64,000 bases of DNA from Alteromonadaceae bacterium (GTDB lineage: Bacteria > Pseudomonadota > Gammaproteobacteria > Enterobacterales > Alteromonadaceae), in NCBI GenBank assembly GCA_965248545.1, contig OZ252110.1:1270224-1334223 (forward strand), given 5' to 3'. Of this stretch, positions 20,570 to 43,493 are shown in pieces. Each line of letters opens with the position of its first letter. Position 1 is the stretch's first letter. Both the position numbers and the translations under genes were made by a program. A model generated the notes under the pieces. The model did not search any database. It was not told where the DNA came from and was given only the letters and a program-made list of their open reading frames with translations.

Positions 20570-20580
20570 TGAGTTCGCTC

Positions 20581-27388: not shown

Positions 27389-30241
27389 TTAGAAAGTCCC
27401 TCTCAAGCCAATCGAGTAACGCGGCTCCTGCACGTTTTCGTATAAGAACTGGTCTCTGAATCGACCAAACTGTTTTTGGCTCTCACCGGTGATATTGAGC
27501 ACTTCAAAACTAACCGCAACATTATCGGTCAATTGATAAGAAGAGCTGAAATCCCACTGCGTGTACTCATCAAAAAAGACGGGTTCATTTGGAGCGCGAA
27601 GCTGATTTTCCGAAAATAAGAATTCGTCTCGCCAGTTGGCAGCCAAACGCGCTGAGAATTTGTCGTCCTCATAGAATCCAACCACATTCCAAGAGTCACT
27701 CAAACCGATCAATATTGACTGTTGAGAAAAATTGTTCGGATCAAACTCTGCATCACTGTCTACCGTCGTGTAGTTGGCTTGAACACCAAATCCAGTGTCG
27801 GCAAAGAGGTGTTGGATTGCGATTTCCCAACCGTCAATTGAGCGCTCCTTTGAGTTTAATGGTTTGGATGTCAAGAAAACTGCCGCTGGGTCACCCGCTT
27901 GACTGAAAACCGGTGTTGACACTTGGTTCGGCGATGTCGTAGGGACATAACGTCCTTGTGGATCAAGCAGCGGGTCACCATTAATATCCGGAATCGTATC
28001 TTCTAAAACTTCTGTGGCAATGTAGTCTTCAACTTCCTTATTGAAGAACGCGAGTGAGAAATAACTCCCTTCTGCATAATAGTATTCGTAGGAAAGATCC
28101 AAGTTGTAAGACGAATATGGTTTCAACCCTGGATTGCCCGCACTAGCCGTGCTGTTCCCCGGGCGATAGTCACTGACTGTCGTCAACGGGCGCAGCGCAT
28201 TTAGGTCTGGGCGCGCAATGCTCTTGCCGTATGAAATTCTCACCACATGATCATCTGCTGGCTCAACTTGGAAATCAATTGACGGCAAAAACACTGAGTA
28301 GTCCGCCTCAACCTCGAAGAATTCTGGTGCAGCATTTGGTGCGAAGATAACGGACCCCTCGGTATTGGTTGTAATTGACAATCCAATCGGGAATGTTTGG
28401 AATGCAGAGCCAATAACATCGGTTGACTCGTGACGTGCGCCTATGATGATTTGAGCAGGCATGTCGCCGAGGTCAAAGTCAGTCTCATAGTTCACGTAAA
28501 ACGCCGTAGATTCTTCCGATGCACCAAAGAAAGTGGGTGGGAACTGTTGCAAAATGCTGTCGATGGAATTTGGGAAAGCTTGGTTTACCAACGCATTAAC
28601 ATCAAATTCAACAACCACACCAAAGCCACTGGGGGCATCAATAAAGTTGCGAGTAAAATCATCTGCACAGCCAGTACAGGCATCCAAACCTTGGAAGAAA
28701 AAGCCCGTGCCAATCGCATTCGTTTCGACCTGATAATCTGTATATGAAGCGCCAGCCGAGATTGAATAAGTATCGCCCATCCAATTGCCTTCAAACTGAT
28801 ACTGATCTACCGTGTTTTCAATCGCAATATTTCTCAGTACTGAACCTAGTGGAGAGAAACCATCTACGTCTTGAAACTCAGTCACATTTGGACGTGGATC
28901 ACCACCACCAAACTGCTGCTGTCCACGGAATGCCCCCGAATCATCAACACCGATTGCAACACCGTTCTCGCTATAGTCAAGGGCGAAGTTGATGCCGAGT
29001 GGACCCTGTATCAGCTGCAAGTTATCGTTTAATTGTCCATCGGGTTGACTGACTGCCTCTGAGCTATGCGCATCAAACTCAAGAGACAAGCGGTCATTTA
29101 CTGTCCACTCTACATTGAGGCCGATAGAGTCATTTTCGATCACCAATTCATTTTCATAGACTAAAGCATCAGCAGCGCCACCGAGTCGATTCGCTTGGTC
29201 TACAGTGTAATTGCTGGTTAACCGAGTCCCCGTTACAGTGCTGCCATCAACAACACCAAACAGGCCTGTTTGATAACGGTCCTGATCACGTTTAAAACGC
29301 GACAATACATAGTCAGCAGTAATGATGAGGTCTTCCGTCGGCTGCGCTTGGAATACAAATTGCGCGTTGGTGCGACGGCGCTTGTTATGTTGGACTTCTG
29401 AAATGTTGGTTACCGGACGATAGACGTAAGGCGCATCACCACAATTTGAACTCGCATCGCCACACCATGCGGCGTAGCCACCGCCACCTTGCTCGTCTCG
29501 CAACCATCCATCTGTATGAGTAGATAGCTCACTAAATTGCCGTTCTGAATATGAGAAGTTAGCTAAGACACCAAATTTGCCATCGCCAAATGTGGTCGAA
29601 AACAATCCACCGAATTCGGGTGTAACGTCATCTCCTTCAATAACCGAAGCGTCATGGACAGCTGCGACATTCGCCAGAATAGTCGTGTCACTGTAATCAA
29701 ATGGTCGTGCCGTCTCAATATTAACGGTGGCGCCCATCCCCCCTGTCGGTTGGTTAGCTTTCGACGTCTTGTATACTTGGACGCCGGTAACAGATTCCGA
29801 CGCTATTTCCGCAAAATTGAACGCGCGGCTTTGTGTGGCAGACGCGATACTTTCTTGTTCAGGTGAAGAGGCTGCCGGCATTTGGCGACCGTTCAATGTT
29901 ACCATGTTGAAGTTTGGCCCTAAGCCGCGAACAGTAATTTGGTTACCTTCGCCATTTTGCCGATCAATTGAAACGCCGGTAATACGCTGGAGAGATTCGG
30001 CTAAGTTAGCATCGGGGAATTTACCGATATCTTCTGCAGTAATAGCATCTACGACCCCACTACTCGAACGTTTCAGATCCATGGATTGAACCAGGCTGCC
30101 TTTTATCCCTCTGACTTCAATCACTTCTACATCATCTGACTGTGTGTCTTGTTGAGCAGCGACTGCTAACGAATGAGAGCCTAAAATTGTGGCGACTGAC
30201 AATGCAATTAGGTTTGGTTTTAATTTTGTGTGCAATTTCAT
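27389..30241 (-). CDS. TonB-dependent receptor (sugar-type) of the xylan locus
   Basis: Signal peptide from ATG 30241 (GGAG upstream), VIEVRGI TonB box region, DAITAEDIGKFPDANLAESLQRITGV plug, C-terminal PRYSIGLRGTF. Confidence 0.95.
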   Translation of the reverse strand: MKLHTKLKPNLIALSVATILGSHSLAVAAQQDTQSDDVEVIEVRGIKGSLVQSMDLKRSSSGVVDAITAEDIGKFPDANLAESLQRITGVSIDRQNGEGNQITVRGLGPNFNMVTLNGRQMPAASSPEQESIASATQSRAFNFAEIASESVTGVQVYKTSKANQPTGGMGATVNIETARPFDYSDTTILANVAAVHDASVIEGDDVTPEFGGLFSTTFGDGKFGVLANFSYSERQFSELSTHTDGWLRDEQGGGGYAAWCGDASSNCGDAPYVYRPVTNISEVQHNKRRRTNAQFVFQAQPTEDLIITADYVLSRFKRDQDRYQTGLFGVVDGSTVTGTRLTSNYTVDQANRLGGAADALVYENELVIENDSIGLNVEWTVNDRLSLEFDAHSSEAVSQPDGQLNDNLQLIQGPLGINFALDYSENGVAIGVDDSGAFRGQQQFGGGDPRPNVTEFQDVDGFSPLGSVLRNIAIENTVDQYQFEGNWMGDTYSISAGASYTDYQVETNAIGTGFFFQGLDACTGCADDFTRNFIDAPSGFGVVVEFDVNALVNQAFPNSIDSILQQFPPTFFGASEESTAFYVNYETDFDLGDMPAQIIIGARHESTDVIGSAFQTFPIGLSITTNTEGSVIFAPNAAPEFFEVEADYSVFLPSIDFQVEPADDHVVRISYGKSIARPDLNALRPLTTVSDYRPGNSTASAGNPGLKPYSSYNLDLSYEYYYAEGSYFSLAFFNKEVEDYIATEVLEDTIPDINGDPLLDPQGRYVPTTSPNQVSTPVFSQAGDPAAVFLTSKPLNSKERSIDGWEIAIQHLFADTGFGVQANYTTVDSDAEFDPNNFSQQSILIGLSDSWNVVGFYEDDKFSARLAANWRDEFLFSENQLRAPNEPVFFDEYTQWDFSSSYQLTDNVAVSFEVLNITGESQKQFGRFRDQFLYENVQEPRYSIGLRGTF

Positions 30242-30474
30242 CGACTGTACTCCGTGCAGTATGCTGTTGGGCAATCGCCGCCAAACCTCATGACTGACTT
30301 TCGGTTCTAAGTTAAAAGTGTCCTGTGTTAACGTTTCTTTTCGGTCCAATTGACCTTGTTTTGGCAGACTCAGAAAATTTCAGAGTCTGGGTGTAAACGA
30401 TTTGTTAACGCATTCAAACTAGCAACGCCCCGAGATTGAATCAATTCCACATCTTTACGTTTTTTAACTTACAT

Positions 30475-30488
30475 AATTACGATTTATT
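30475..30488 (-). promoter_or_regulatory. Candidate XylR site upstream of the TBDR
   Basis: Minus strand AATAAATCGTAATT, matching sites upstream of tal, xylA and xylB. Confidence 0.5.
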
Positions 30489-30647
30489 TTAATCTGACCA
30501 ATGCCCCAAAAAAATCCCCAAAAGCCTCATAACCCGCATTTATATTAGAGATAACAATTCTGTTTTTGACGTGATAACTTTCACAAAAAATGAAACTAAA
30601 ATTAACCTTTAAATATTTTTTATCATATTTCATCACAAAAAAAGGCC

Positions 30648-30681
30648 AATAATTCGTAATGGTAAGAGCAAAATTCGTAAA
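30648..30681 (+). promoter_or_regulatory. Candidate XylR direct repeat upstream of tal
   Basis: AATAATTCGTAAT (30648-30660) and CAAAATTCGTAAA (30669-30681), period 21 bp. Confidence 0.55.
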
Positions 30682-30739
30682 AGCCCCCCCCTGCTCGATC
30701 CCTCATAATGTTAATTCTATTAACAAACGACTTTGTGCT

Positions 30740-31702
30740 ATGTCTAAACTAGATTCACTGAAAAAGATGACTGCAATAGTTGCTGACACAGGTGACTTAA
30801 AATCAATCACCAACACTAGGCCTCTTGATGCAACAACAAACCCATCTTTGTTGCTGAAAGCCGCAAAATCAGGGGTTTACAATCACTTATTGGAAAAAGC
30901 GAGTATCGGCGAAAACAATCAAAGACGCTCACCAAGCACAGCTGCAGAGATTTTTGCGGTCTTAATTGGTGCCGAAATTGCGGACATTGTACCTGGCAGA
31001 GTTTCCACCGAAGTGGACGCGCGCCTATCGTTTGATACGCATGCTATGGTAGAGACGGCAACGAGACTGATTGAATTATATGAACAACACGGTGTTGATC
31101 GCTCTCGGGTTCTGATCAAAATTGCGGCCACATGGGAAGGCATAAGAGCGGCTGAACAATTAGAGAAACAAAATATACAGTGCAATCTAACCTTGTTGTT
31201 TAATATGGCACAAGCGCGTGCGTGTGCTGAGGCGGGTGTGTATCTGATATCCCCGTTCGTGGGCCGTATTTACGACTATTATAAATTGGCTGACCCGGGT
31301 CGAAAGTTTACACCACAAAACGATCCTGGGGTGTTATCAGTAAAAGCCATATTCGAGTTTTATCGAGAGCACGATTTCAAAACGATTGTGATGGGTGCCA
31401 GTTTTCGGACTACCGAGCAAGTACTTGCGCTTGCTGGGTGTGATCGCTTAACCGTCTCTCCGAATCTGCTGCAAGCGCTCAATGAAGAAGATGGAGAGGT
31501 CGTGCAAACACTGCATGTGCCAACATCGAAGTCTGCGTTTGATACCCCGCGCCTGACGGAATCCGAGTTCCGATTTGCTTTGTGCACCGATCCTATGGCT
31601 AACACTAAACTTGCTGAAGGAATTGCACAGTTTTGTAAAGATCAAATCGCACTAGAAACCTTGCTAGACAATACACTCCAACAGGAGAGGCATTATGCAT
31701 AA
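30740..31702 (+). CDS. tal: Transaldolase
   Basis: IVADTGD, DATTNPSLL, VSTEVDARLS, LIKIAATWEG, NLTLLF, LISPFVGRI. Start ATG 30740. Confidence 0.97.
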   Translation: MSKLDSLKKMTAIVADTGDLKSITNTRPLDATTNPSLLLKAAKSGVYNHLLEKASIGENNQRRSPSTAAEIFAVLIGAEIADIVPGRVSTEVDARLSFDTHAMVETATRLIELYEQHGVDRSRVLIKIAATWEGIRAAEQLEKQNIQCNLTLLFNMAQARACAEAGVYLISPFVGRIYDYYKLADPGRKFTPQNDPGVLSVKAIFEFYREHDFKTIVMGASFRTTEQVLALAGCDRLTVSPNLLQALNEEDGEVVQTLHVPTSKSAFDTPRLTESEFRFALCTDPMANTKLAEGIAQFCKDQIALETLLDNTLQQERHYA

Positions 31703-32411
31703 GCAACAGCGAGAATTTGACCTAGACGCCCTGTCAGCGCAATTTTGGCAGAATGGCTACATCGTTATTGAGAACTTTTTTGAGTCTGACTTAATGAAGC
31801 AATGCCAAGAGACAATAATGGGTCATTTTGGTTTAACACCGGAATTTTTACACGATGAAAACTTTATCGAAGCGTCAAAAACCGAAGTGATCCCATGGTT
31901 TCCGCAACGCGAAGGCGTCGCTCTGTTCGATCGCGTTGAGCAGCTAGAAGCACTGCGAAGCCTAACTCAAGCGATTCTAAATTCGGGTTGGCAATCGCAA
32001 TATTGTATGGTGATGTTTTCAAAAAGTGGCACGAGCGGCCAAGCCTGGCACCAAGATTGTCCTCCCGAAGATCCGAGGTGCTTCAATTTAAATCGCCTAG
32101 TTTATACCATGGACGTAACGGACCAGACTGGTGGCGAAGTCTACATCTTGCCGCAAAGCCACAAGCGTGGAGCTTTGACAGAAGGTCCAGTGTTTGAAGA
32201 CTTTCCGGACCAAGTGAAATTAACGCCTGCCACAGGGACCTTGGTTCTGTTACATGGTCATTGTTGGCACCGCATCGGAGATATCAAAGGTGATTATCGC
32301 GTTTCAACTAACTATCGCGCTGCGCCACTCGGGGTCCCAGATGACATAACAGACATCTGCGTATATCGAAACATGCGCTATCAGTTTTCGACATCTCAAA
32401 TCGTCGGCTAA
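31695..32411 (+). CDS. Fe(II)/2-oxoglutarate dioxygenase, phytanoyl-CoA dioxygenase (PhyH) family
   Basis: FWQNGYIVIENF, WHQD (HxD), ILPQSHK, distal HGHCWH, YRVS. Start overlaps the tal stop by 8 bp. Confidence 0.88.
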   Translation: MHKQQREFDLDALSAQFWQNGYIVIENFFESDLMKQCQETIMGHFGLTPEFLHDENFIEASKTEVIPWFPQREGVALFDRVEQLEALRSLTQAILNSGWQSQYCMVMFSKSGTSGQAWHQDCPPEDPRCFNLNRLVYTMDVTDQTGGEVYILPQSHKRGALTEGPVFEDFPDQVKLTPATGTLVLLHGHCWHRIGDIKGDYRVSTNYRAAPLGVPDDITDICVYRNMRYQFSTSQIVG

Positions 32412-33373
32412 AGCTCCCTAACTGCCTCTATTTGTTCTTGAAAGGCGATGGAGGCATCCAAAGGAACCACTTCTGATTCCGTTTTGCCCAGTCTGATCGC
32501 ATCACAAACATGCTCGATTTGAAATTCAAAGCCCGAACCTTCACGCGGATCATTGAAACTCTTCTGCGGCTTCTCTAATTCGTACAAATGACACTCAGAT
32601 GCGCGCCAAAAATCAGGGATCTGAATGGTTCCTTTGGTACCAATGATAATCCCGACATTCGGTAACTTAGCTTTAAACGAAGTGTGCATAAATGCTGTGC
32701 TTTTTTCGTACTGCCACGTCCAGCATACGTCATCCTCGACCCCATTGGGTGCAAAGCGCTGCATTCCCGCTATGGATGTAGGTTGAATGGCATGCAACAA
32801 CCGGTTAAAGGCGATTGGGTATATCCCCATTTCGAGCAGACAGCCGCCCGCGAAATGTGCATCATATTCTCGCAATGACGGGGAATAGGGCAATGGGTAA
32901 CCAAAATCCGCTCGCACATGCAACAGCTCACCGATCTCGCCTGCTTTGACCCACTCTACCGCTTTTTGAATCGCCGGCAGAAAATATGTCCACATCGCTT
33001 CCATCAGAAAAATGTTGTGCTCTTGTGCAAGCTGCTTCAGATATCTCATGTCTTCACTGGACGTCACTATCGGTTTTTCGCACAACACGTGTTTCCCATT
33101 TCTGATTGCTTGCTCAACTTGCTCTTTATGCAAAGTATGCGGCGATGCAATGTATACAGCGTCGATATCTGGATGTTCAAAAATTCGGTCATAGCCTGCA
33201 TATGCCTCGGCGATACCATATTGGTCAGCGAATAACTGAGCTTTTGCCTGGTCTCTTGCTGCAACAGCCTGGATGATTGTGTTTTGACAAAACTTAATGT
33301 CTTTAGCAAAAGTGTGCGTTATGCGACCAGCGGTGATCACACCCCAACGAATCACCCCATCGTTACCCAACAT
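32408..33373 (-). CDS. Gfo/Idh/MocA oxidoreductase (related to dihydrodiol/D-xylose dehydrogenase)
   Basis: IRWGVI, DAVYIASPHTLH, HVLCEKP, FLMEAMWT, GGCLLEMGIYP. Confidence 0.92.
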   Translation of the reverse strand: MLGNDGVIRWGVITAGRITHTFAKDIKFCQNTIIQAVAARDQAKAQLFADQYGIAEAYAGYDRIFEHPDIDAVYIASPHTLHKEQVEQAIRNGKHVLCEKPIVTSSEDMRYLKQLAQEHNIFLMEAMWTYFLPAIQKAVEWVKAGEIGELLHVRADFGYPLPYSPSLREYDAHFAGGCLLEMGIYPIAFNRLLHAIQPTSIAGMQRFAPNGVEDDVCWTWQYEKSTAFMHTSFKAKLPNVGIIIGTKGTIQIPDFWRASECHLYELEKPQKSFNDPREGSGFEFQIEHVCDAIRLGKTESEVVPLDASIAFQEQIEAVREL

Positions 33374-33382
33374 AATGACCTC

Positions 33383-34939
33383 CTATCGACTTAACTCGTG
33401 TTCAAGCTGTTCAAGACTCTTGCCGCTTGTCTCCGGCAATAGTCGAATCACCAATACTAAACTGATAACGGCAAATACCGCATAAATTAAAAATGTCACT
33501 GCTGCCCCCAGATTCGCTAGCTCCCATGGAAACGCCAGCTGCACGATAAAACTCACAATACTATTGACCACACCAACAACCGAAATTGCTAAGCCGCGCA
33601 AATGATTTGGAAAAATTTCAGAAAATAGTACCCACATAACAGGACCGAGGGAAAACGCAAAGCACGCAACAAACCCCAAAATACCGACCAGTATCAACAC
33701 TGAATTGAGTGACGCTGATACCTGTATGATATGTCCTTGATTGGCTTGGAACACTGTTTCTCCGATCCGCTCAACGACCGCTTGCTTAAATTCAATATCA
33801 CTAGTGAACACATGGTTCACGAGTGGTTGTAGTTGGCTCACATCGACGTTAATGGCGAGTGCTTTCAGTGCTTCGGGTGTCAACTGGTATTGGGCTTCAC
33901 TGTAGCCATAAGCGCATATCAGCATGCTTACCACCACGCCAGACAAGCCAAAAATCAGCAGTGGCCGACGACCCAATCGGTCAATTAGTGCAATCGCAAC
34001 CAGGGTAAAAACAACGTTGATGATGCCCACCCAAATCGCCTGTGCAAAAGCTGCGTTCGTGCCGACGCCAGTTTGTTCAAAGATTGTCGGCGCGTAAAAA
34101 TAAATCGCATTGACGCCAGTCGCTTGTTGGGCAATTCCCACCACCAAACCAATCACTAACGCTGTTCGCATGGTGGGTCCAAAGATTTCCTTTAGATGCA
34201 TCAGAACATTGGTTTGACTAGTTTCTGCCGTCGCAGCAATTTCGCTAATATTGGATTGCAGCGATTCTTCATCTTGCTCAGGATACAGCTGCTTGAGAAC
34301 TTTAGAAGCTTCATCACTACGATGCTGCACAATCAACCATCTGGGGCTTCTTGGGATCACAAATAACAACAAAAAATAAAGCGTAGCGGGTACGATTTCG
34401 AGTCCAAGCATCCAGCGCCACGTTGCCTGATCAATCTTTGCCATAGTAACCCAGTCCAGCGAACTTTGACTAAGTTGCAACAAGAAGTAATTCGCAAAGT
34501 AGGCGACTGAGAAACCGATAACAATGTTGAGTTGATTGATCGAAACCATCTTCCCTCGAGCTTTGGCAGGAGCAATCTCAGCTATATACATTGGCGCTAT
34601 CATCAACGAACAAAACGCTAAACCACCAATAAAGCGAGCAACAACCAAGGCTGCATAGCTTGGCGCAAATGCAGAGAGTATGGCACTGAGCAGATATAGT
34701 GCTGCGATGATCATTAACGTGGTGCGTCGCCCAATACGGTCAGCAATGTAGCCCGCTGACAGGGTCGCAAGTATCCCCCCAAGCGTTGGCGCGGCTACCA
34801 CAAACCCTTGTTCAATATGATTTAATTCAAATTCAACGCTGATTAGCCCGACGGCGCCAGAAATGACTGAAGCGTCAAAACCAAAGATAAACCCACCCAT
34901 GGAAACAATCAGCGTGTAGAACAAAACCGGGTTGCGCAT
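33383..34939 (-). CDS. Sugar porter family MFS transporter (xylose or xylo-oligosaccharide candidate)
   Basis: GGFIFGFD, DRIGRR, PMYIAEIAP, PRSPRWL, QQATGVNAIYFYAP, DRLGRRPLL, SEIFP, PETSGKSLE. Confidence 0.95.
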   Translation of the reverse strand: MRNPVLFYTLIVSMGGFIFGFDASVISGAVGLISVEFELNHIEQGFVVAAPTLGGILATLSAGYIADRIGRRTTLMIIAALYLLSAILSAFAPSYAALVVARFIGGLAFCSLMIAPMYIAEIAPAKARGKMVSINQLNIVIGFSVAYFANYFLLQLSQSSLDWVTMAKIDQATWRWMLGLEIVPATLYFLLLFVIPRSPRWLIVQHRSDEASKVLKQLYPEQDEESLQSNISEIAATAETSQTNVLMHLKEIFGPTMRTALVIGLVVGIAQQATGVNAIYFYAPTIFEQTGVGTNAAFAQAIWVGIINVVFTLVAIALIDRLGRRPLLIFGLSGVVVSMLICAYGYSEAQYQLTPEALKALAINVDVSQLQPLVNHVFTSDIEFKQAVVERIGETVFQANQGHIIQVSASLNSVLILVGILGFVACFAFSLGPVMWVLFSEIFPNHLRGLAISVVGVVNSIVSFIVQLAFPWELANLGAAVTFLIYAVFAVISLVLVIRLLPETSGKSLEQLEHELSR

Positions 34940-34944
34940 CTTCT

Positions 34945-36111
34945 TCACCACCATTGCCCCTGGATCCAGGTTTCCTTGTTTTGGGTTTCAGCTAGCCATT
35001 TATCCAAGATTTCTGGGTTAGCATGAACTCGCGTGTCACCCCAGTAGCCTTGTGGACAAGTTGGCGTTCCTGCTGTTGCGTTCTTTGCGCAAAACCACAT
35101 CGGTTGGCTTTCCCAATGAGTATTAATGTATGCAAGTGCTTTTATGACGTCCTCATTTGCTTCGATAAATTCAAACAAGGGTCTATACCAACGCAGCCAA
35201 ACCTGCTCTGCAGTTACTTTTTTCTGATCATTCACTGATATATAACCCTGCGTAAGGGTCGTAAGGTTGTAAGCTTGAGGCGCGGCTTCAGCAATCATGA
35301 CTGGCTTGCCTTCCTTGCGAGCAAAATCCAATACTTTTTGTTGTGCCGAAGCAGGCGTATCCACCGGCGTATAATGCCATTGATGAAGATCGCGATAGAA
35401 TGTCGAAATCGAAACCCAATCTACTGCATCAGGCCCCGGATACCAGTCATTTAAATGCTGTGAGTTACGGTGGTCGTAGTCCTTTTCACGCTCGCCAGCA
35501 ATAGTGGGATCCGGCCAAGTAGCTGATTGCCAAACTGTCACAACATTGTCGGCGTTTTGTTCATTTAAAAGTTTAGCAATACGTCGATAAGCGCGCTTGT
35601 AAGTATCCTGCTGATAACAATTCCACGGGCCATCAAATTCATAACCAATACGCAGAAAAATCGGTCGAGGAGCTTGCGCCTTAAACCAATCAATCATGAA
35701 TGTAATTGACGCATCATAATCTCCATCTGCAATGTGTTTACCGTGATGGGGTTGATTGCAGCTATCGAAGGCCAGGCCCACCGCAAGAGCGGCAAATGGA
35801 GCTTGTGTTAGTGTATGGGTAAAATCTACCTCGCCGGCATGCCAATTACTCACTTGTCGGAGGCCAAACAAGGTTTGTTGCGGATCAGCCGATTTTATCT
35901 GGGTGTAAAGAGTCACACCTTCAAGCTGATCTTGCGGAACTGCGGATTGATAGTCATTAATCGTGTCCGTGTCTTGTCCCATGAACAACAACCGCTGTCC
36001 CGGTTTGAGCGGAACATACTGTTCATTGACGAGTCTGGTGACACTCTGGCTATGACAGGCGACGAGCAAGCCCGCGAATGTCAGTACTTTGGCAAATCGT
36101 GCTATCTTCAT
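34945..36111 (-). CDS. GH26 lipoprotein, probable endo-beta-1,3-xylanase
   Basis: Lipobox LVAC. GQD near the N-terminus, acid/base LRIGYEFDGPWN, WYPG..VDW, nucleophile GKPVMIAEAAPQ, W...W..P.F, YIN..W.SQ..W, GYWGDTRV.AN. As I recall the sequences, this motif series follows the Vibrio GH26 beta-1,3-xylanases rather than mannanases. Confidence 0.8.
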   Translation of the reverse strand: MKIARFAKVLTFAGLLVACHSQSVTRLVNEQYVPLKPGQRLLFMGQDTDTINDYQSAVPQDQLEGVTLYTQIKSADPQQTLFGLRQVSNWHAGEVDFTHTLTQAPFAALAVGLAFDSCNQPHHGKHIADGDYDASITFMIDWFKAQAPRPIFLRIGYEFDGPWNCYQQDTYKRAYRRIAKLLNEQNADNVVTVWQSATWPDPTIAGEREKDYDHRNSQHLNDWYPGPDAVDWVSISTFYRDLHQWHYTPVDTPASAQQKVLDFARKEGKPVMIAEAAPQAYNLTTLTQGYISVNDQKKVTAEQVWLRWYRPLFEFIEANEDVIKALAYINTHWESQPMWFCAKNATAGTPTCPQGYWGDTRVHANPEILDKWLAETQNKETWIQGQWW

Positions 36112-36283
36112 TGTGTTTATTGTTAGTGAAAATCACGGTTTCATATTGGTAACAGTATTCAAAACCGGTTTAAAGGGGCGCACTTGTGAATACTAAAAAT
36201 GGTTATTCTTAAACTAAAAAAAATAATTGTTGGCAGTGCCTTGATTGCGGATTCTGTGCCAAATGAACGAGTGTTAGACAACT

Positions 36284-37903
36284 ATGAATACAATGACCGA
36301 TAACCCTATCTTGCCGGGCTTTCACCCGGACCCATCCATCGTGCGTAGCGGTGATGATTACTATATTGCAACCTCAACGTTCGAGTGGTACCCAGGGGTT
36401 TGTATCTACCATTCCAATGACTTAAAAAACTGGCGACTGGTGGATCGGCCACTCAGCAGTCTCGAGCACTTGGATATGCGGGGTAACCCAGACTCATGTG
36501 GTGTCTGGGCGCCATGTTTAACCATAAAATCAGGGATTTTTTATCTCGCGTTTACCAATACCCGTCGATTTGCGGGGAATTTCAAAGATACGCCTAATTA
36601 CTATATTTACGCAGACGCGATAGGTGGGCCATGGTCTGAGCCGGTCTATGTGAACAGTAGCGGATTTGATCCGTCTCTCTTTCACGATGATGACGGTAAG
36701 AGCTATTGGCTCAATATGGTGTGGGACCACCGTCCAGCTAAAGGGCGCAACAACTTTGCGCCAAATGCGTTTTTTGCGGGGATCATGTGTCAGCAAATCA
36801 ATCTATCTAACGGTCAGCTGGTGGGAGAAGCCAAGATGATATACCCCGGCTCATCTATCGGGTTGACTGAAGGGCCGCATATTAAGAAACGCGACGATTT
36901 TTATTACCTGATTACTGCGGAGGGGGGTACTGGCACTCAGCACGCAGTTTCAGTTGCACGTGCTAAACGTATTTTTGGCCCGTACGAAACCGCTCCAAAC
37001 AACCCTTTGATTACCAGTGCATTGTCTCCAAGTATAGGGCTAAAGCGCTCTGGTCACGGTGATTGGGCTGAGACTGATAACGGAGAGGGTGTACTTGTAC
37101 ACTTGAGCAGTCGCCCCCTGACATACCGCGGGCGCTCGGTCATGGGCCGCGAGACCGCTATGCACAAGATCAGTTGGACTACTGATGGCTGGCCGATTTT
37201 GAGTCATGGTGAAAATGCACCATTAGAGCCTATGTCTGAAGAGACGATGAAGGCAAACGCCGTTGACGAACATGTCAATTTTGCAACGGACACGTTGCCT
37301 ATGACCTATCATAGTCTGCGCTACCCAATCGAATCAAAACACGCATATGTAGACCGTCAGCGAGGCCAATATTGCCTGCTTGGTCAAGAGAGTATCGGTA
37401 GCCATTTTCAACAGAGTCTATTGGCTCGCCGGCAACAGGCTTTCGTGTACGATTACAGCCTTACACTTGACTTTCAACCAGCCTCCTTTCAGCAAATGGC
37501 TGGTCTAACTTGTTATTACAATAGCCAGAAATTTTTCTATCTGCACATAACACATGACGAGACGCTCGGGCGCGTGTTAGATATAGCATTCTGCGCAGGT
37601 GAGTGGACAATGCGTTATCCACAGGCAGAGCCTATCTCCCTCCCAGAAAGCGGCACGGTCGGTTTAAAAGTAAAGGTCGACCATGATATCGCTATATTCG
37701 CTTATCAGTTGGAAGGTGAGGATTGGCGAGAGCTTGATGTACGGCTTGATTACAGTGTGCTATGCGATGAATTGGGTGATGGCGGAGCAGACGCGAACTT
37801 TACGGGCAGTTTTGTTGGATTTTGTTGTCAAGATCTAACCGGGCAGAACCAGCCCGCTTTTTTTGACCATTTGCGCTATCAAGAATACCCAAGTCAACCT
37901 TAA
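36284..37903 (+). CDS. GH43 beta-xylosidase with C-terminal beta-sandwich (beta-1,3-xylosidase candidate), cytoplasmic
   Basis: GFHPDPSI (base), WAP, GFDPSLF, TEGPHI (acid), GHGD, GRET, GGADANFTGSFVG. No signal peptide. Confidence 0.92.
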   Translation: MNTMTDNPILPGFHPDPSIVRSGDDYYIATSTFEWYPGVCIYHSNDLKNWRLVDRPLSSLEHLDMRGNPDSCGVWAPCLTIKSGIFYLAFTNTRRFAGNFKDTPNYYIYADAIGGPWSEPVYVNSSGFDPSLFHDDDGKSYWLNMVWDHRPAKGRNNFAPNAFFAGIMCQQINLSNGQLVGEAKMIYPGSSIGLTEGPHIKKRDDFYYLITAEGGTGTQHAVSVARAKRIFGPYETAPNNPLITSALSPSIGLKRSGHGDWAETDNGEGVLVHLSSRPLTYRGRSVMGRETAMHKISWTTDGWPILSHGENAPLEPMSEETMKANAVDEHVNFATDTLPMTYHSLRYPIESKHAYVDRQRGQYCLLGQESIGSHFQQSLLARRQQAFVYDYSLTLDFQPASFQQMAGLTCYYNSQKFFYLHITHDETLGRVLDIAFCAGEWTMRYPQAEPISLPESGTVGLKVKVDHDIAIFAYQLEGEDWRELDVRLDYSVLCDELGDGGADANFTGSFVGFCCQDLTGQNQPAFFDHLRYQEYPSQP

Positions 37904-38568: not shown

Positions 38569-38588
38569 ACGTTATGTTGTGGCGGTTG

Positions 38589-39908
38589 TTAGCCAAAAAT
38601 AACGCGATTGACCTTGTTTTCAAGTAACTCCTGACGGCCTGAACGATGCCGTGGCTGCAAATCAAGTTTTTGCGCTTTGGTGGCTAGTTGGTCAAGCGAA
38701 AGTTTCCCTGCCAGTACATCTTGCCCCAATTCACTGCTCCACCCTTTGTATCGTTGTGCCACACTTTCAGATAAGAAGTCACCTTCAATCAATTTAGCTG
38801 CGTGCTTCAACGCGATTGCTATATTATCCATTGCGCCTATATGACCATAAAACATATCGGCTGGATCATTGCTCTGTCGACGGAGTTTTGTATCAAAATT
38901 AAATCCACCTGTAGTGAAACCACCAGATTTTAAAATTTCGTATACAACCAATGTCAATTCATCGACATCAATAGGGAACTGATCAGTATCCCAGCCGTTT
39001 TGAGGATCTCCTCGGTTGGCATCTAAGCTGCCAAAAATCCCCAGTGAAATCGCCGTTGCTACTTCGTGATGGAATGAATGACCCGCAAGAGTTGCATGGT
39101 TGGTTTCAATATTTACGGCAAATTCATTCTCTAGACCGAACTGTTTCAAAAAGCCGTAAACCGTTGCAGTGTCGTAATCATATTGATGTTTAGTAGGCTC
39201 TTGCGGTTTTGGCTCAATGAGCAAAGTGCCTTTAAAGCCGATTTTATGCTTGTGCTCAACGACCATACTCAAGAACCGTCCCATCTGCTGACGCTCTTGT
39301 CGCAAATCCGTATTTAGCAGCGACTCATAACCTTCTCGGCCACCCCAAAGCACGTAATTTTCACCACCGAGACGATGGGTAGCATTCATTGCTTGACACA
39401 CTTGCGCAGCCCCGTATGCGAACACCTCGGGATTTGGATTTGTGGCGGCTCCAGCTGCAAAACGTGGATTACTAAATAGATTAGCGGTTCCCCACAATAA
39501 CTTAACCCCAGTCTGCGCTTGTTTTTCGGCGAGATCTTCAACCATTTCACTAAAATTTGCCGTGTAGGAGGCTAAATTGTGGCCTTCCGGCGCAACATCG
39601 ACGTCGTGAAAGCAATAGTAAGGGATGCCGAGTTTACTGAAAAACTCAAATGCCACATCCGCCTTTTGTTTCGCACGCTGCATAGCATCACCGGGTTGCA
39701 ACCATGGTCTGCCAAAGGTCCCTTGTCCAAAGACATCTGCGCCGTCCCAACAAAAGTTATGCCAGTAACAAGCTGCAAAACGCAAATGCTCCTGCATTGA
39801 TTTACCTAAAACTTTCTCGTCGGCATTGTAATGGCGAAAGGCCAGTAAGTTATCAGACTCTGGCCCTTCATAGGCTACCTTTTCAATCGAATCAAAGTAA
39901 TCAGCCAT
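38589..39908 (-). CDS. xylA: Xylose isomerase (class II)
   Basis: [54 protein letters not shown]. Confidence 0.98.
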
Positions 39909-40014: not shown

Positions 40015-42021
40015 TTACAAACTGAAGTGTTGCACTGTGGCGGTGACGATCGCACTTTTAGTCAAACCAAAATGCTCATACAAGTGTTCAGCCGGTGCCG
40101 ATTCACCAAAACTGTTGACAGCAAAAACCCGTCCATCAAGACCCACATATTGATACCAAGGTTGTGCGCAAGCGGCTTCAATCGCCACCCTTTTTCGGCA
40201 CGCGTCAGGTAAGACAGTGTTTTTGTATGCCGCTGATTGTTGATCGAATCGATTCATACACGGCATCGAGATCAGGTTAACGTTAATTCTATACCGTTGT
40301 CGCAGCTCCTCGCAGACCTGTAGTGCCAGCGATACCTCTGAACCCGCTGACATTACAAGAATGTCAGGCTCATCTGCGTCTGTTTGAAGCACGTAGCCGC
40401 CTCTTTCAATTAGGGCAGGATTCGACAGCCCATTGGTTACTGCGGGTAGCCCTTGGCGAGACAAGCACAACGCAGAAGGCATTCGTTGCTGTTCTGCCGC
40501 ACACAACCATGCCACCGTCGTTTCAAGTTGATCACATGGCCGCCAAGTGTCTAGGTTTGGGGTTGCGCGCAAATTCGCTATTTGCTCAACTGGCTGGTGA
40601 GTCGGCCCATCTTCTCCCAATCCAATCGAGTCGTGAGTGAAGACATAGATGGTTGGCAACTTCATCAATGCTGACATGCGCACAGCATTGCGGGCGTATT
40701 CCATGAACATCAAGAAAGTCGCACCAAAGCACTTGAGCCCGCCATGGGCATTGACCCCATTGGCGATAGCTGCCATACCGAATTCTCGCACGCCATAATG
40801 CAGGTATTGCCCCTGAGGATTGTGGTGCGCAAATGCTTCGGCTTGCCTCCATTGCGTTAGATTTGACGGCGCTAAATCAGCTGACCCTCCGACGAGCTCG
40901 GGCAATAGCGGTTTAATCCTGTCGAGGGCGGTTTGCGATGATTTTCGGGAAGCTTGTTTATTTGCCTGAGCTTGTGTTTCTGTGATGATTCTTTCTTTAC
41001 CTGCGTCCCAACTGTATGGCAACTGTCCCGACATTCGTCGTTGAAACTGTTCAGCCAGCTCTGGATACAATTCCGCATACTGCTTAAACGCAGCAAGCCA
41101 TTCGGACTCCGCTTGCTGGCCTGACACTTTTGCATCCCAAGCTGCTCGGATATTCTCGAGCAGTTCAAACGGTGTTTGTGGCCAGCCAATTTGCTGCTTA
41201 AAAAGCGCGATTTCTTCTTGACCCAAAGGCGCGCCATGACATTCGTGGGAGCCAGCTTTATTGGGCGCCCCTTCACCAATATTGGTTTTACAGCAAATAA
41301 GTGTAGGTTGGCGCGAGCACTTGGCACGTTCAATGGCGGAATCAATTGCCATGTGATCATGTCCATCAACCTTGTCTATGACTTGCCAGCCATAGCTCTC
41401 GAAGCGCTTCGCTGTGTCATCAGTGAACCAGCCATCGACTTCGCCATCGATTGAAATGCCATTGTCATCATAAAACACGATGAGTTTGTTCAATTGCCAG
41501 GTACCGGCCAACGATGCTACTTCATGTGAAATCCCTTCCATCAAACAACCATCACCCACGAAACAGTAAGTAAAATGGTCGACGATTTGATGGTTAGGGT
41601 GGTTAAACTCGGCAGCTAGCATTCGCTCCGCTAGCGCAAAACCGACGGCATTGGCAAGACCTTGCCCCAGCGGTCCAGTCGTTGTCTCCACTCCTGGTGT
41701 GTAACCGAGTTCAGGATGACCTGGGGTTTTTGAATGCAACTGTCGAAAGTTCTTAAGGTCTTCAAGCTCAACATCATAGCCCGTCAAGTAAAGTAGGCTA
41801 TAGAGCAGCATTGAGCCATGGCCATTAGACAGAACAAAACGGTCGCGGTTGTACCACTCTGGATTTGAAGGGTTGTGACGTAAGTGTTTCGCCCACAATA
41901 CCTGAGCAATGTCGGCCATGCCCATCGGCATTCCGGGATGCCCAGAGTTGGCCTGTTGTACCGCGTCAACACTTAATACTCGAATGGCATCCGCCATTTG
42001 TTTTGCGTCAAATTCGGTCAT
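40015..42021 (-). CDS. tkt: Transketolase
   Basis: [34 protein letters not shown] ThDP motif, [19 protein letters not shown] at 42021 overlaps the xylB stop (ATGA). Confidence 0.98.
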
Positions 42022-43493
42022 GTTAACTGCTCCCATATACGTCGTTGACTGGCTTGTTCTGAAAACTGTTTAAAATATGAATAACGGTGATTGTGTACCT
42101 CTGTCATCTCAGGTCTAGGCAAGTGTGACGCAATTGCTGCGGGCGCTGGACATATTGCTTCAATGTCTCGTTCAGGGTGCAGTGCTAACTGTGCCAATCG
42201 CGCTGCTCCTAGAGCAGGTCCAACGTCACCTCCCTCACGATAGACAATTGCGACTTCAAGCACATCAGCAATTAATTGGCGCCAAAATTTACTGCGTGCG
42301 CCACCACCGATTATGGAAATTTCGGACGGAAAAACGCCCGCTTCATGCATTACCTCAAGCCCGTTCTTAAAAGCAAACGCAATGCCTTCAAGGATGGCAT
42401 AAGTCATATTTGCACGTGTAGTGGATGCTGAAATTCCGACAAATTCACCGCCCATACTAGGATTGTTGTACGGGGTGCGCTCGCCGCTGAGATATGGCAA
42501 AAAGAATCCGTTTGAGTCAGGTGTAACATCGCTGTTTTCAAGCTCATCAAGCAACGTATCCACTGAGCCTTGTGCGGCAATATCTGCAAACCACTGCAGG
42601 CATGAAGCGGCACTTAGATGAACTGACATAACGTGCCATTTGCCGGGAATAGCATGACAAAAACTGTGCAGTGCACGTTTAGGGTTTGAGAGATACCGCT
42701 CCGAAGCAGAAAACAATACACCCGACGTGCCAAGCGATAAAATTGTTTGCCCATCAAACACTACACCACTGCCTACCGCGCCCGCTGCATTGTCACCGCC
42801 ACCACCCGCGATGGGCACAGCAGACATTCCCCAACGATTGGCAAGAGACATGTGCAGCCGGCCGGTGATCTGATTACCCTCACACAACTCGGGCATCTGT
42901 GCCGCTGTTAGGCCACACGCTGCGAGCATAGGCGCTGACCAGTCGCGTTTCGCAACATCTAACCAACTCGTGCCGGCCGCATCTGACATATCGCTATAAA
43001 AGGTTCCGCATAGCAGAAAGCGGATATAGTCTTTTGGTAACAGTACCTTGGCGACTCGAGAAAATAAGTCCGGTTCATTGTTCGCCACCCACAATAATTT
43101 AGGTGCGGTAAATCCCGGCATCACCAAGTTGCCTGTGATCCCATGCACATCCTTTACACGATTTGTCAGTAAGTCACATTCTGCGGCGCTCCGTCCATCA
43201 TTCCACATAATAGCGGGGCGCAATACTTCGTTGTTTTCATTAAGTAATACTGCACCATGCATTTGCCCCGTCAATCCGATGGCTGTGACGCGTCTCGTCA
43301 TCCCTTTGTGAGCGAGTTTATCCAAGCACTCTGAAACCGCTAACCACCAATCGAGGGGCTGTTGCTCAGACCACATTGGGCGAGGGTTCTGTACTGACAA
43401 TGGCTCAGAATGGCTACCTATCACTGCGCCTTGCTCGTCGCAGATGACCACTTTGACACCCGAAGTGCCAATATCAATTCCCATGTACGCCAT
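42018..43493 (-). CDS. xylB: Xylulokinase
   Basis: [54 protein letters not shown]. Confidence 0.97.

What the first reader, a model, noticed from the sequence alone, without database searches (positions are those of the whole stretch)
31695..33373. PhyH dioxygenase plus Gfo/Idh/MocA oxidoreductase inside the xylan locus: possible undescribed sugar-tailoring step
Seen: the dioxygenase is coupled to tal (8-bp overlap) and the oxidoreductase ends the GH26-MFS operon. The two meet tail to tail. Neither is needed for the isomerase pathway, and no xylonate dehydratase is visible for an oxidative route. Established: a 2OG/Fe dioxygenase plus an NADPH reductase (KanJ/KanK) converts a substituted sugar carbon to a ketone and then a hydroxyl, and marine bacteria oxidatively demethylate O-methyl sugars (P450 for 6-O-methylgalactose). 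Inference: this pair may demethylate, deaminate or epimerise a modified pentose from algal xylan and feed it to XylA/XylB.
Basis: inference. Interest (0 to 1): 0.75.

Follow-up and report, generated by a model that had tools for sequence, protein, structure and literature searches.

The report
Conserved oxygenase-reductase pair in algal-xylan loci
Two uncharacterised redox enzymes, an iron/2-oxoglutarate oxygenase and an NADP-type sugar oxidoreductase, sit next to each other beside a sugar transporter in marine beta-1,3-xylan gene clusters of at least six bacterial phyla, which points to an oxygen-dependent sugar-processing step missing from the published pathway.

Summary
The Gfo/Idh/MocA gene closes the GH26-MFS operon. 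The two genes meet tail to tail with a 4-bp overlap.

The locus (27389-44865) is a beta-1,3-xylan locus: TonB receptor, GH26 closest to beta-1,3-xylanase XYL4, cytoplasmic GH43, XylE-like MFS, xylA, xylB, tkt, tal and xylR.

The PhyH protein has every catalytic mark of an Fe(II)/2OG oxygenase. It has no characterised close relative. The Gfo protein is closest to dimeric dihydrodiol dehydrogenase, which also acts as D-xylose dehydrogenase and 1,5-anhydrofructose reductase.

In 80 PhyH loci, Gfo lies within three genes in 51, in three different relative orientations. GH26 lies within three genes in 27. Where Gfo is missing, an aldo-keto reductase, Fe-ADH or SDR sometimes stands nearby. PhyH co-occurs with GH26 in two bacterial families (p 1e-8 and 2e-6).

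Gfo-MFS pairs also occur without PhyH, beside xylAB. A bare PhyH-Gfo-MFS trio occurs in SAR92-type genomes where GH26 and XylA were not found.

Best reading: a cytoplasmic oxygenase plus carbonyl-reductase step acting on an imported sugar. The substrate is unknown, and no paper found assigns a function.

The parts
27389..30349 (-). TonB-dependent receptor (TonB-Xanth-Caul type). Outer-membrane uptake for the locus.
   Evidence: TIGR01782, 621 bits against a cut-off of 310. Plug and barrel domains in Pfam.
30659..31702 (+). Transaldolase (talAB type). Its stop overlaps the PhyH start by 8 bp.
   Evidence: PF00923, E 2e-86. TIGR00874, 416 bits. Junction read.
31695..32411 (+). PhyH-family Fe(II)/2-oxoglutarate oxygenase, 238 aa, cytoplasmic, single copy in the genome.
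   Evidence: PF05721, 40.5 bits against 22. H119, D121, H192, R202 and S204 are invariant in 34 homologues. AlphaFold model with pLDDT 92; Foldseek finds 2OG oxygenases SptF, SnoN, TlxI and FtmOx1. One copy in the genome.
32408..33373 (-). Gfo/Idh/MocA oxidoreductase, 321 aa, of the dimeric dihydrodiol dehydrogenase type. Last gene of the GH26-MFS-Gfo operon.
   Evidence: PF01408 and PF22725. Best solved relative is 2o48, dimeric dihydrodiol dehydrogenase, E 3.7e-45, covering residues 8-319. EKP Lys100, E181-x3-Y185 and Arg40 are conserved in 65 orthologues.
33383..34954 (-). MFS sugar porter (XylE/GlcP-like), 523 aa. The only inner-membrane transporter identified among the locus genes.
   Evidence: PF00083, E 1e-105. 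TIGR00879, 360 bits. XylE model, 318 bits, below its cut-off of 608.
34945..36111 (-). GH26-type endo-xylanase with a lipoprotein signal (MKIARFAKVLTFAGLLVAC). Closest to beta-1,3-xylanase.
   Evidence: 2ddx/3vpl beta-1,3-xylanase XYL4, E 1.4e-35. AlXyn26A (7xjr), E 5.5e-22. Translation.
36284..37903 (+). GH43 beta-xylosidase with a GH43_C2 domain. No signal peptide, so cytoplasmic.
   Evidence: PF04616 starts at residue 6. PF17851 also matches.
38589..39908 (-). Xylose isomerase XylA (class II).
   Evidence: TIGR02630, 686 bits against a cut-off of 533.
40015..42036 (-). Transketolase.
   Evidence: TIGR00232, 948 bits.
42018..43493 (-). Xylulokinase XylB.
   Evidence: TIGR01312, 564 bits against a cut-off of 380.
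43699..44865 (+). XylR-type regulator (periplasmic-binding-protein-like domain plus AraC HTH).
   Evidence: PF22177 (XylR N-terminal domain), PF13377 and PF12833.

Best explanation
PhyH, Gfo and the XylE-like MFS porter form the core of an accessory, oxygen-dependent sugar-processing module. In most lineages this module travels with GH26 beta-1,3-xylanase and GH43 genes.

Proposed mechanism:
1. The TonB receptor and the GH26 lipoprotein deliver xylo-oligosaccharides. The MFS brings the small sugar into the cytoplasm. Gene content is shown; the direction of flow is inferred.
2. The PhyH enzyme is a true Fe(II)/2OG oxygenase. It hydroxylates a ring C-H that hydrolases and isomerases cannot act on. 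This would be a carbon that carries a substituent or glycosidic oxygen, or a deoxy or anhydro carbon. The result is a carbonyl or a restored hydroxyl (inferred).
3. The NADP(H)-type, dihydrodiol-dehydrogenase-like Gfo enzyme reduces the keto or osone carbonyl made by PhyH, or alternatively supplies the PhyH substrate. The product is an ordinary sugar for central metabolism (inferred).

Shown here: catalytic integrity of both enzymes, their physical and phylogenetic coupling, and their absence from the described pathway. Inferred: the order of the two steps, the carbon attacked and the identity of the substrate.
For: - Catalytic integrity of PhyH: HxD...H and RxS are invariant in 34 homologues from several phyla. 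The model is confident and has the double-stranded beta-helix fold.
- Catalytic integrity of Gfo: EKP Lys and D/E-x3-Tyr are conserved in 65 sequences. Its best characterised relative acts on pyranose C1/C2 (PMC12441222 cites it as a 1,5-anhydrofructose reductase).
- Linkage: Gfo is immediately adjacent to PhyH in 38 of 80 loci and within three genes in 51, across six phyla.
- Linkage survives rearrangement. PhyH->Gfo occurs in 19 loci, 8 of them with a 4-bp overlap. Gfo->PhyH occurs in 4. The convergent layout occurs in 15.
- GH26->PhyH is co-directional in 17 loci, with gaps of 30 bp or less.
- Where Gfo is absent, another NAD(P) oxidoreductase sometimes lies within three genes: an aldo-keto reductase in 2 loci, Fe-ADH in 3 and an SDR in 1. 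An SDR also stands in the published Flammeovirga loci.
- Genome profiles, PhyH against GH26: in Alteromonadaceae both 7, PhyH only 2, GH26 only 3 of 151 genomes, p 1.3e-8. In Flavobacteriaceae both 5, PhyH only 1, GH26 only 7 of 201 genomes, p 1.8e-6.
- Between this window and Bacteroidota loci, PhyH is 52-58% identical. That is more conserved than XylA (49-52%), GH43 (44-48%), Gfo (31-45%) and GH26 (28-34%).
- Gut Bacteroides beta-1,3-xylan loci listed in part 2 of Table S8 of PMC12125979 carry no PhyH. This fits an oxygen-dependent step.
Against: - No biochemical or expression data exist for either protein.
- Gfo orthologues occur without PhyH in about 15 of the 21 Alteromonadaceae genomes that have Gfo, next to xylB-xylA or the MFS. 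They interleave with PhyH-linked copies in the tree. Gfo therefore does not need PhyH.
- PhyH occurs without any recognised reductase nearby in about 23 of 80 loci. An example is Glaciecola, where it follows GH3 and precedes peptidase genes.
- Vibrio sp. EA2 degrades beta-1,3-xylan completely without either gene (PMC12125979). No chemical modification of algal beta-1,3-xylan that would call for an oxygenase is known to me.
- The bare trio in genomes without GH26 or XylA shows that the substrate need not come from xylan.
Confidence: 0.45

Rival explanations
1. The two enzymes are neighbours but do not act in sequence. Gfo would be a stand-alone NADP-dependent aldose (D-xylose) 1-dehydrogenase or dicarbonyl/osone reductase tied to xylose uptake, for redox balance or metabolite repair around XylA. 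PhyH would act independently on something else released with the GH26 product.
For: - Gfo-MFS pairs and xylB-xylA-Gfo arrangements occur without PhyH.
- Gfo is more widespread than PhyH: 21 against 9 of 151 genomes.
- PhyH-linked and PhyH-less Gfo copies interleave in the tree.
- The best relative, dimeric dihydrodiol dehydrogenase, is also a D-xylose 1-dehydrogenase (established knowledge, EC 1.1.1.179).
- PhyH occurs without Gfo behind GH3 or GH2 genes.
Against: - Gfo is by far the commonest PhyH neighbour. Eight loci have 4-bp translational coupling, and adjacency is kept in three orientations.
- Reductases from other families stand near PhyH in some loci that lack Gfo.
- The genome has only two IlvD/Edd-family genes, neither near the locus, so xylonate would be a dead end.
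- Gfo scores 92 bits against a cut-off of 350 for the curated xylose dehydrogenase Gfo6 model.
Confidence: 0.27
2. Salvage of an anhydro sugar. Gfo would reduce 1,5-anhydro-D-fructose, or a pentose analogue, to the 1,5-anhydro-alditol. PhyH would hydroxylate C1 to regenerate an ordinary aldose such as glucose, mannose or xylose. This matches the Sinorhizobium morelense pathway, whose C1 hydroxylase has never been identified. Red algae make 1,5-anhydrofructose from floridean starch.
For: - The two characterised relatives of Gfo both reduce 1,5-anhydrofructose. Dimeric dihydrodiol dehydrogenase is the best hit, E 3.7e-45. AFR (2glx/4koa) scores E 3e-20 (Hara 2020 and Kuhn 2006 as cited in PMC12441222).
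- The animal 1,5-anhydrofructose reductase is an aldo-keto reductase, and aldo-keto reductases stand beside PhyH in two loci.
- The reading explains why the trio with a hexose/pentose porter stands alone in SAR92-type genomes where GH26 and XylA were not found and no kinase reached the XylB cut-off.
- Hydroxylating an ether carbon needs an oxygenase.
Against: - The dominant context is GH26, GH43 and xylAB, not starch or glucan-lyase genes. None was seen among the recurring neighbour families of the 80 loci.
- Gfo without PhyH would then make a dead-end anhydro-alditol.
- The S. morelense hydroxylase was thought to be P450-like (PMC12441222).
- No natural pentose analogue is known to me.
Confidence: 0.13
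3. PhyH acts on a non-carbohydrate. It could hydroxylate a protein, or an osmolyte or other small molecule as ectoine hydroxylase does. It would then be in the locus for regulatory or incidental reasons.
For: - Source databases name homologues 'ectoine hydroxylase-related'.
- EctD and the amino-acid hydroxylase GriE appear among remote profile hits.
- Glaciecola copies lie next to peptidase genes.
Against: - Consistent operon membership with glycoside hydrolases (GH26, GH3, GH2) and sugar transporters across phyla.
- The sequence relationship to EctD is remote, E 9e-5 with the profile.
- The invariant residues include many aromatic and polar side chains of the kind often found in sugar-binding sites. 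This last point is inference.
Confidence: 0.1

Closest known systems
KanJ/KanK of kanamycin biosynthesis: a PhyH-family 2OG dioxygenase followed by an NADPH reductase (own knowledge, Sucipto et al. 2012)
   Same: A PhyH-superfamily Fe/2OG oxygenase is paired with an NAD(P)H-dependent reductase. The logic is oxidation of a sugar ring carbon to a ketone, then reduction to a hydroxyl.
   Different: KanJ is not a detectable sequence relative at E <= 1 with the family profile. The setting here is catabolic, cytoplasmic and transporter-linked, not an antibiotic gene cluster. No amino sugar is implied. The substrate is unknown.
[quoted passage not shown] EA2 (Sun et al. 2025, PMC12125979)
   Same: GH26 beta-1,3-xylanase, GH43 xylosidase, MFS transporter, XylA, XylB and a xylose-responsive regulator are clustered together.
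   Different: xul has no PhyH and no Gfo, and it uses an ABC importer. The paper calls the pathway complete without them. Its Table S8 lists PhyH and 'predicted dehydrogenase' genes in Aquimarina and Flammeovirga loci, and a dihydrodiol-dehydrogenase gene without PhyH in the rows shown for Cellulophaga. It gives them no function.
Dimeric dihydrodiol dehydrogenase, DHDH (PDB 2o48): D-xylose 1-dehydrogenase (NADP+) and 1,5-anhydro-D-fructose reductase
   Same: It is the best characterised relative of the Gfo protein, E 3.7e-45 over nearly the full length. The EKP Lys and the acid-x3-Tyr motif are shared, as is the AARD segment after the second strand.
   Different: It is a mammalian enzyme with no operon context. 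The bacterial protein has Glu in place of Asp in the acid-x3-Tyr motif. Its activity has not been tested.
1,5-anhydro-D-fructose pathway of Sinorhizobium morelense: Gfo-family AFR plus an unidentified C1 hydroxylase
   Same: A Gfo-family sugar reductase is followed by an oxygenase that restores a normal aldose. The oxygenase gene is still unknown (PMC12441222).
   Different: AFR is a more distant relative, 76 bits. The hydroxylase there was thought to be P450-like. Here the context is xylan, not glucan.
SnoN/SnoK, 2OG oxygenases acting on the sugar of nogalamycin
   Same: SnoN is among the top structural matches, Foldseek E 1e-12 and TM 0.66. It has a similar size of about 250 aa and acts on a sugar ring carbon.
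   Different: Identity is 15-17%. It is a secondary-metabolite tailoring enzyme with a large aglycone-bearing substrate.
Cytochrome P450 demethylase of 6-O-methyl-D-galactose in marine porphyran loci (own knowledge, Reisky et al. 2018)
   Same: An oxygen-dependent oxygenase is embedded in an algal polysaccharide utilisation locus, where it handles a sugar that hydrolases cannot.
   Different: It belongs to a different enzyme superfamily and has different redox partners (ferredoxin and reductase). Its substrate is a defined methyl ether.

Membership tests
Fe(II)/2-oxoglutarate oxygenase, PhyH family (PF05721) | Significant match to the family profile | tested here: met
   40.5 bits against a gathering cut-off of 22, residues 19-193.
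Fe(II)/2-oxoglutarate oxygenase, PhyH family (PF05721) | HxD...H iron-binding facial triad | tested here: met
   H119, D121 and H192 are invariant in 34 homologues.
Fe(II)/2-oxoglutarate oxygenase, PhyH family (PF05721) | Arg (RxS) that binds the C5 carboxylate of 2OG | tested here: met
   R202 and S204 are invariant.
Fe(II)/2-oxoglutarate oxygenase, PhyH family (PF05721) | Double-stranded beta-helix fold | tested here: met
   AlphaFold pLDDT 92.3, pTM 0.90. Foldseek top hits are all 2OG oxygenases, E about 1e-12, TM 0.6-0.72.
Fe(II)/2-oxoglutarate oxygenase, PhyH family (PF05721) | Substrate-coupled conversion of 2OG to succinate and CO2 | not testable with these tools
   Needs an enzyme assay.
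KanJ/KanK-type oxygenase-reductase pair | Detectable homology of the oxygenase to KanJ | tested here: not met
   No KanJ chain appears among PDB hits at E <= 1 with the family profile or among the 50 best Foldseek matches. Only superfamily membership is shared.
KanJ/KanK-type oxygenase-reductase pair | A dedicated NAD(P)H reductase encoded next to the oxygenase | tested here: met
   Gfo lies within three genes in 51 of 80 loci. An aldo-keto reductase, Fe-ADH or SDR lies within three genes in 6 of the loci that lack Gfo.
KanJ/KanK-type oxygenase-reductase pair | Keto-sugar intermediate passed from the oxygenase to the reductase | not testable with these tools
   Needs coupled assays and product analysis.
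Gfo/Idh/MocA oxidoreductases, dimeric dihydrodiol / D-xylose dehydrogenase subgroup | N-terminal Rossmann domain plus C-terminal alpha/beta domain | tested here: met
   PF01408, E 4e-26, and PF22725, E 6e-18.
Gfo/Idh/MocA oxidoreductases, dimeric dihydrodiol / D-xylose dehydrogenase subgroup | Catalytic EKP lysine and acid-x3-Tyr/His motif | tested here: met
   K100 is present in 64 of 65 sequences, E/D181 in 65 of 65 and Y185 in 65 of 65.
Gfo/Idh/MocA oxidoreductases, dimeric dihydrodiol / D-xylose dehydrogenase subgroup | Closest characterised relative belongs to the subgroup | tested here: met
   2o48, E 3.7e-45, residues 8-319 against 3-322.
D-xylose 1-dehydrogenase Gfo6 (NF041392 equivalog) | Score above the curated cut-off | tested here: not met
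   92 bits against a cut-off of 350.
Oxidative (Weimberg/Dahms) xylose pathway | Xylonate dehydratase of the IlvD/Edd family in the locus, or as an extra genomic copy | tested here: not met
   The genome has only two IlvD/Edd-family genes, at 1.16 and 3.90 Mb and not near the locus. Enolase-type dehydratases were not searched.
[quoted passage not shown] | GH26 beta-1,3-xylanase, GH3/GH43 xylosidase, transporter, XylA and XylB clustered | tested here: met
   The activities are inferred from homology only.
1,5-anhydro-D-fructose pathway | Reductase orthologous to AFR, and a source of anhydrofructose (glucan lyase) in context | tested here: inconclusive
   AFR scores 76 bits, but the best relative, DHDH, is an anhydrofructose reductase. 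No glucan-lyase or starch genes were seen among the recurring neighbour families of the 80 loci.

The most novel reading that the evidence does not exclude
This PhyH family is a new class of carbohydrate-active Fe/2OG oxygenase in marine glycan catabolism. Together with its reductase and porter, it would carry out a reaction that hydrolases and isomerases cannot. Four candidate reactions remain open:
- oxidative cleavage or unblocking of a beta-1,3-xyloside;
- re-hydroxylation of a 3-deoxy-pentose or 3-deoxy-pentosone formed when 1,3-linked reducing ends peel;
- C1 hydroxylation of an anhydro-alditol, which would make it the long-missing oxygenase of the anhydrofructose pathway;
- an irreversible, XylA-independent conversion of xylose via xylosone to xylulose, suited to oligotrophs such as SAR92.
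Probability: 0.3. Interest if true: 0.85.

Novelty: new variant of a known kind. Interest (0 to 1): 0.68.

Why it matters
[quoted passage not shown] Their bacterial catabolism was declared complete in 2025 with hydrolases, transporters and the isomerase pathway alone.

Many marine loci, and a few freshwater or other non-marine ones, carry an oxygenase-reductase pair in addition. The pair is conserved across phyla, and PhyH is more conserved than xylose isomerase. That argues for an unrecognised substrate or by-product of algal xylan turnover and for an oxygen-dependent step in its use.

The module also stands alone, with only a sugar porter, in abundant coastal oligotrophs of the SAR92 clade. 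Its substrate may therefore be a free dissolved sugar derivative of ecological weight.

Both proteins are small and soluble, and culturable carriers exist, so the question can be tested directly. Fe/2OG oxygenases acting on free sugars in catabolism are, to my knowledge, essentially undescribed.

Tried and rejected
- Chance neighbourhood: rejected by the 80-locus survey and two genome profiles.
- Oxidative xylose route starting from Gfo: made unlikely by the lack of a third IlvD/Edd-family gene. The two SGL lactonase-family hits are weak and distant. Enolase-type dehydratases were not searched.
- Function transfer for PhyH from solved structures: only remote hits. TlxI scores E 2.5e-6 with the profile. 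Foldseek TM is about 0.66 at under 20% identity.
- NCBIfam gives no family for PhyH.
- Six literature searches for a characterised PhyH or Gfo in xylan loci found nothing. [quoted passage not shown] HypA and HypB of Vibrio xul are 678 and 347 aa hypothetical proteins, not this pair.
- Shared operator between the tal-PhyH promoter, the GH26 promoter and the xylA/xylB promoters: the 16-bp box occurs only at xylA and xylB. Co-regulation by XylR remains unshown.
- SAR92 xylulokinase: the best FGGY kinase is below the XylB cut-off and lies among glycerol-3-phosphate-dehydrogenase-like genes.
- Earlier scan notes hold no follow-up on this family.


Full report
**Observation**

The six-frame ORF list and family scans confirm the gene order. 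Reading left to right:
- TonB-dependent receptor, 27389-30349 (-)
- transaldolase, 30659-31702 (+)
- PhyH-family protein, 31695-32411 (+)
- Gfo/Idh/MocA oxidoreductase, 32408-33373 (-)
- XylE-like MFS sugar porter, 33383-34954 (-)
- a 388-aa lipoprotein, 34945-36111 (-)
- GH43 with a GH43_C2 domain, 36284-37903 (+)
- xylA, tkt, xylB and a XylR-type regulator, up to 44865

The lipoprotein has no Pfam hit. Its best solved relative is beta-1,3-xylanase XYL4 (E 1.4e-35), ahead of the mixed-linkage xylanase AlXyn26A (E 5.5e-22). The GH43 domain starts at residue 6, so that enzyme is cytoplasmic.

- The PhyH ATG, preceded by AGGAGAG, overlaps the tal stop. The overlap is 8 bp.
- PhyH and Gfo converge, and their stop codons overlap.
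- Gfo follows the MFS gene after 9 bp.
- GH26 and MFS overlap by 10 bp.

The genome is a single 4.2-Mb contig from the family Alteromonadaceae, as judged by its nearest loci. It holds one PhyH copy.

**The two proteins**

An alignment of 34 PhyH homologues, 57-79% identical to the window protein, shows H119, D121, H192, R202 and S204 invariant. These are the HxD...H iron triad and the RxS 2-oxoglutarate anchor.

The AlphaFold model is confident (pLDDT 92). Its nearest solved folds are all Fe/2OG oxygenases: SptF, SnoN (which acts on a sugar ring carbon), TlxI, AusE and FtmOx1. TM-scores are only about 0.66 and identity is below 20%. Sequence and profile searches of the PDB give only remote hits, and KanJ is not among them. 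NCBIfam has no model for the protein. PhyH is therefore a genuine 2OG oxygenase with no characterised close relative.

The Gfo protein matches dimeric dihydrodiol dehydrogenase over its whole length (E 3.7e-45). It keeps the EKP lysine, the acid-x3-Tyr motif and Arg40 in all or nearly all of 65 orthologues. It scores far below the curated cut-offs for inositol dehydrogenase, archaeal xylose dehydrogenase and the 3-dehydrogenase families.

The mammalian relative oxidises D-xylose at C1 (established knowledge). According to work cited in PMC12441222, it is also an efficient 1,5-anhydro-D-fructose reductase.

**Co-occurrence**

A scan of one genome per species returned 245 relatives of PhyH, of which 80 loci were kept. 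They come from eight named phyla:
- Pseudomonadota: Alteromonas, Glaciecola, Paraglaciecola, Cellvibrionaceae, Halieaceae and the SAR92 clade of Porticoccaceae
- Bacteroidota: Flagellimonas, Aquimarina, Cyclobacteriaceae and Chitinophagaceae
- Calditrichota, Ignavibacteriota, Lentisphaerota, Planctomycetota, Chloroflexota and Actinomycetota

I clustered the neighbouring genes without prior labels. Counts over the 80 loci:

| Neighbour of PhyH | Immediately adjacent | Within three genes |
|---|---|---|
| Gfo | 38 | 51 |
| MFS porter | 5 | 34 |
| GH26 | 17 | 27 |
| GH43 | 2 | 24 |

Adjacency survives rearrangement:
- PhyH->Gfo is co-directional in 19 loci. Eight have a 4-bp overlap and 16 have gaps of 9 bp or less.
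- Gfo->PhyH occurs in 4 loci.
- The convergent layout seen in this window occurs in 15 loci.
- GH26->PhyH is co-directional in 17 loci, with gaps of 30 bp or less.

Where Gfo is missing, another NAD(P) oxidoreductase sometimes lies within three genes:
- an aldo-keto reductase in a Phycisphaeraceae and a Halioglobus locus;
- an Fe-alcohol dehydrogenase, with a sodium-solute symporter (SSS family) and a GH2 glycosidase, in Paraglaciecola.

An SDR fills this place in the published Flammeovirga loci.

Genome-wide profiles agree:
- Among 151 Alteromonadaceae genomes, PhyH occurs in 9 and a strong GH26 orthologue in 10. Seven genomes, from seven genera, have both (Fisher p 1.3e-8).
- Among 201 Flavobacteriaceae genomes, PhyH occurs in 6 and GH26 in 12. 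Five have both, and in all five PhyH starts 10-25 bp after GH26 (p 1.8e-6).

These p-values ignore shared ancestry. The patchy distribution across genera makes simple inheritance an unlikely explanation.

Between this window and Bacteroidota loci, PhyH is the best-conserved protein of the module. It is 52-58% identical, against 49-52% for XylA and 28-34% for GH26.

**What complicates the simple story**

1. Gfo is more widespread than PhyH. Orthologues at 42% identity or more occur in 21 of 151 Alteromonadaceae genomes. Without PhyH they sit beside xylB-xylA or the MFS porter. In the tree, PhyH-linked and PhyH-less copies interleave. Gfo therefore has a xylose-associated role of its own.
2. The trio also stands alone. 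In the ten genomes sampled with PhyH and Gfo side by side and no GH26 or GH43 nearby, the three genes where present form a tight operon among housekeeping genes. These are SAR92/Porticoccaceae genomes, Paraglaciecola arctica and one Pseudomonadales MAG. None of the ten has GH26. Only one has a class II XylA at E <= 1e-30. None has a kinase above the XylB cut-off. The best SAR92 kinase lies among glycerol-3-phosphate-dehydrogenase-like genes. The trio is thus an autonomous unit, and its product need not be xylose destined for XylA.
3. Vibrio sp. EA2 uses beta-1,3-xylan completely without either gene. The gut Bacteroides loci in the part of that paper's Table S8 that I read carry no PhyH. This fits an accessory, oxygen-dependent function.
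4. The genome has only two IlvD/Edd-family genes, both far from the locus. A Weimberg/Dahms route starting from Gfo is therefore unlikely.

**Mechanism**

The evidence best fits a cytoplasmic two-enzyme redox step on the sugar that the porter imports. The oxygenase attacks a C-H bond that hydrolases and isomerases cannot handle. A carbonyl reductase works before or after it. The reductase is usually Gfo and sometimes comes from another family.

I put 0.45 on this general scheme. The specific chemistry remains open. The candidates, all inferred, are:
- (b) reduction, then re-hydroxylation, of the 3-deoxy-pentosone that 3-O-linked reducing ends form by beta-elimination; the mammalian relative of Gfo is a 3-deoxyglucosone reductase (own knowledge);
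- (c) reduction of an anhydroketose followed by C1 hydroxylation of the anhydro-alditol, as in the Sinorhizobium pathway, whose hydroxylase gene is still unidentified;
- (d) C2 oxidation of xylose to xylosone, then aldehyde reduction to xylulose, which would bypass XylA.

Reading (c) explains the stand-alone trio best. Readings (a) and (b) explain the GH26 linkage best.

The main rival, at 0.27, is that the two enzymes share a locus but not a pathway.

**Novelty**

Both superfamilies are well known. PhyH and dehydrogenase genes are even listed in a published supplementary table of beta-1,3-xylan loci. No paper found here assigns or discusses a function.

New here:
- recognition of a cross-phylum PhyH-Gfo-porter module;
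- its statistical tie to beta-1,3-xylanase-type GH26 genes;
- reductases of other families standing near PhyH where Gfo is absent;
- its stand-alone form in SAR92-type genomes.

I class this as a new variant of a known kind, namely an oxygenase-reductase sugar-tailoring pair used in catabolism. There is a fair chance that the chemistry is new.

**Limits**

- There is no biochemistry.
- The neighbour genes in other loci were called with a simple ORF heuristic.
- A 16-bp box shared by the xylA and xylB promoters is absent from the tal-PhyH and GH26 promoters. Regulation of the pair by XylR is therefore not shown.

Noticed in passing
window 39967-39982 and 43548-43563: The 16-bp box CAATTACG[T/A]AA[T/A]TTCA occurs exactly twice in 64 kb, upstream of xylA and upstream of xylB (the xylB-xylR divergent region). 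It is a candidate XylR operator. It is absent from the TBDR-tal and GH26-GH43 intergenic regions.
   Followed up: partly
window 37900-38451 (-): A 183-aa protein with a type IV pilin N-terminal methylation motif (PF07963) lies between GH43 and xylA, inside the xylan locus. An 83%-identical copy lies near GH43 in the related Alteromonas locus L001.
   Followed up: no
L003, L004, L014, L042 (related loci): In related xylan loci the TonB receptor is followed by SapC-like and tryptophan-halogenase-like genes plus a LacI regulator. This is the receptor/halogenase/SapC cassette of unknown function noted in earlier scan reports. This window lacks the cassette and has an AraC-type regulator (26332-27327) and an SDR (25523-26308) beside the receptor instead.
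   Followed up: no
L033, L038, L068, L069 and published Aquimarina/Flammeovirga loci: A secreted protein of about 445 aa, with only a weak GH2 TIM-barrel match (PF02836, E 1e-8), sits between PhyH and Gfo in some Bacteroidota loci. It may be a further uncharacterised clan GH-A glycosidase of the module.
   Followed up: partly
L035 (Cellvibrio sp. OA-2007), about 4989-5672 (-) and 10001-10675 (+): Two PhyH paralogues, 56% and 59% identical to the window protein, lie in one locus about 4 kb apart.
   Followed up: no
L102 8034-9608 (-) (SAR92 strain HTCC2207): An FGGY kinase scores best with the XylB model but below its cut-off (262 against 380 bits). It lies in a cluster with a glycerol-3-phosphate-dehydrogenase-like flavoprotein, a GlcD-like FAD oxidase, two SDR-type reductases and a GliR-like AraC regulator. 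The substrate is unknown.
   Followed up: partly
window 19748-21531 (-): A LigB-type extradiol dioxygenase subunit and a glutathione S-transferase lie side by side, next to a LysR regulator (22218-23135). This is a small aromatic-cleavage cassette unrelated to the xylan locus.
   Followed up: no
L021, L022, L024, L026, L036 (Paraglaciecola-type loci): Here PhyH ends an operon of an Fe-alcohol dehydrogenase, a sodium-solute symporter and a 1050-aa GH2 (LacZ-like) glycosidase. This is a second, non-xylan context for the same oxygenase family.
   Followed up: partly
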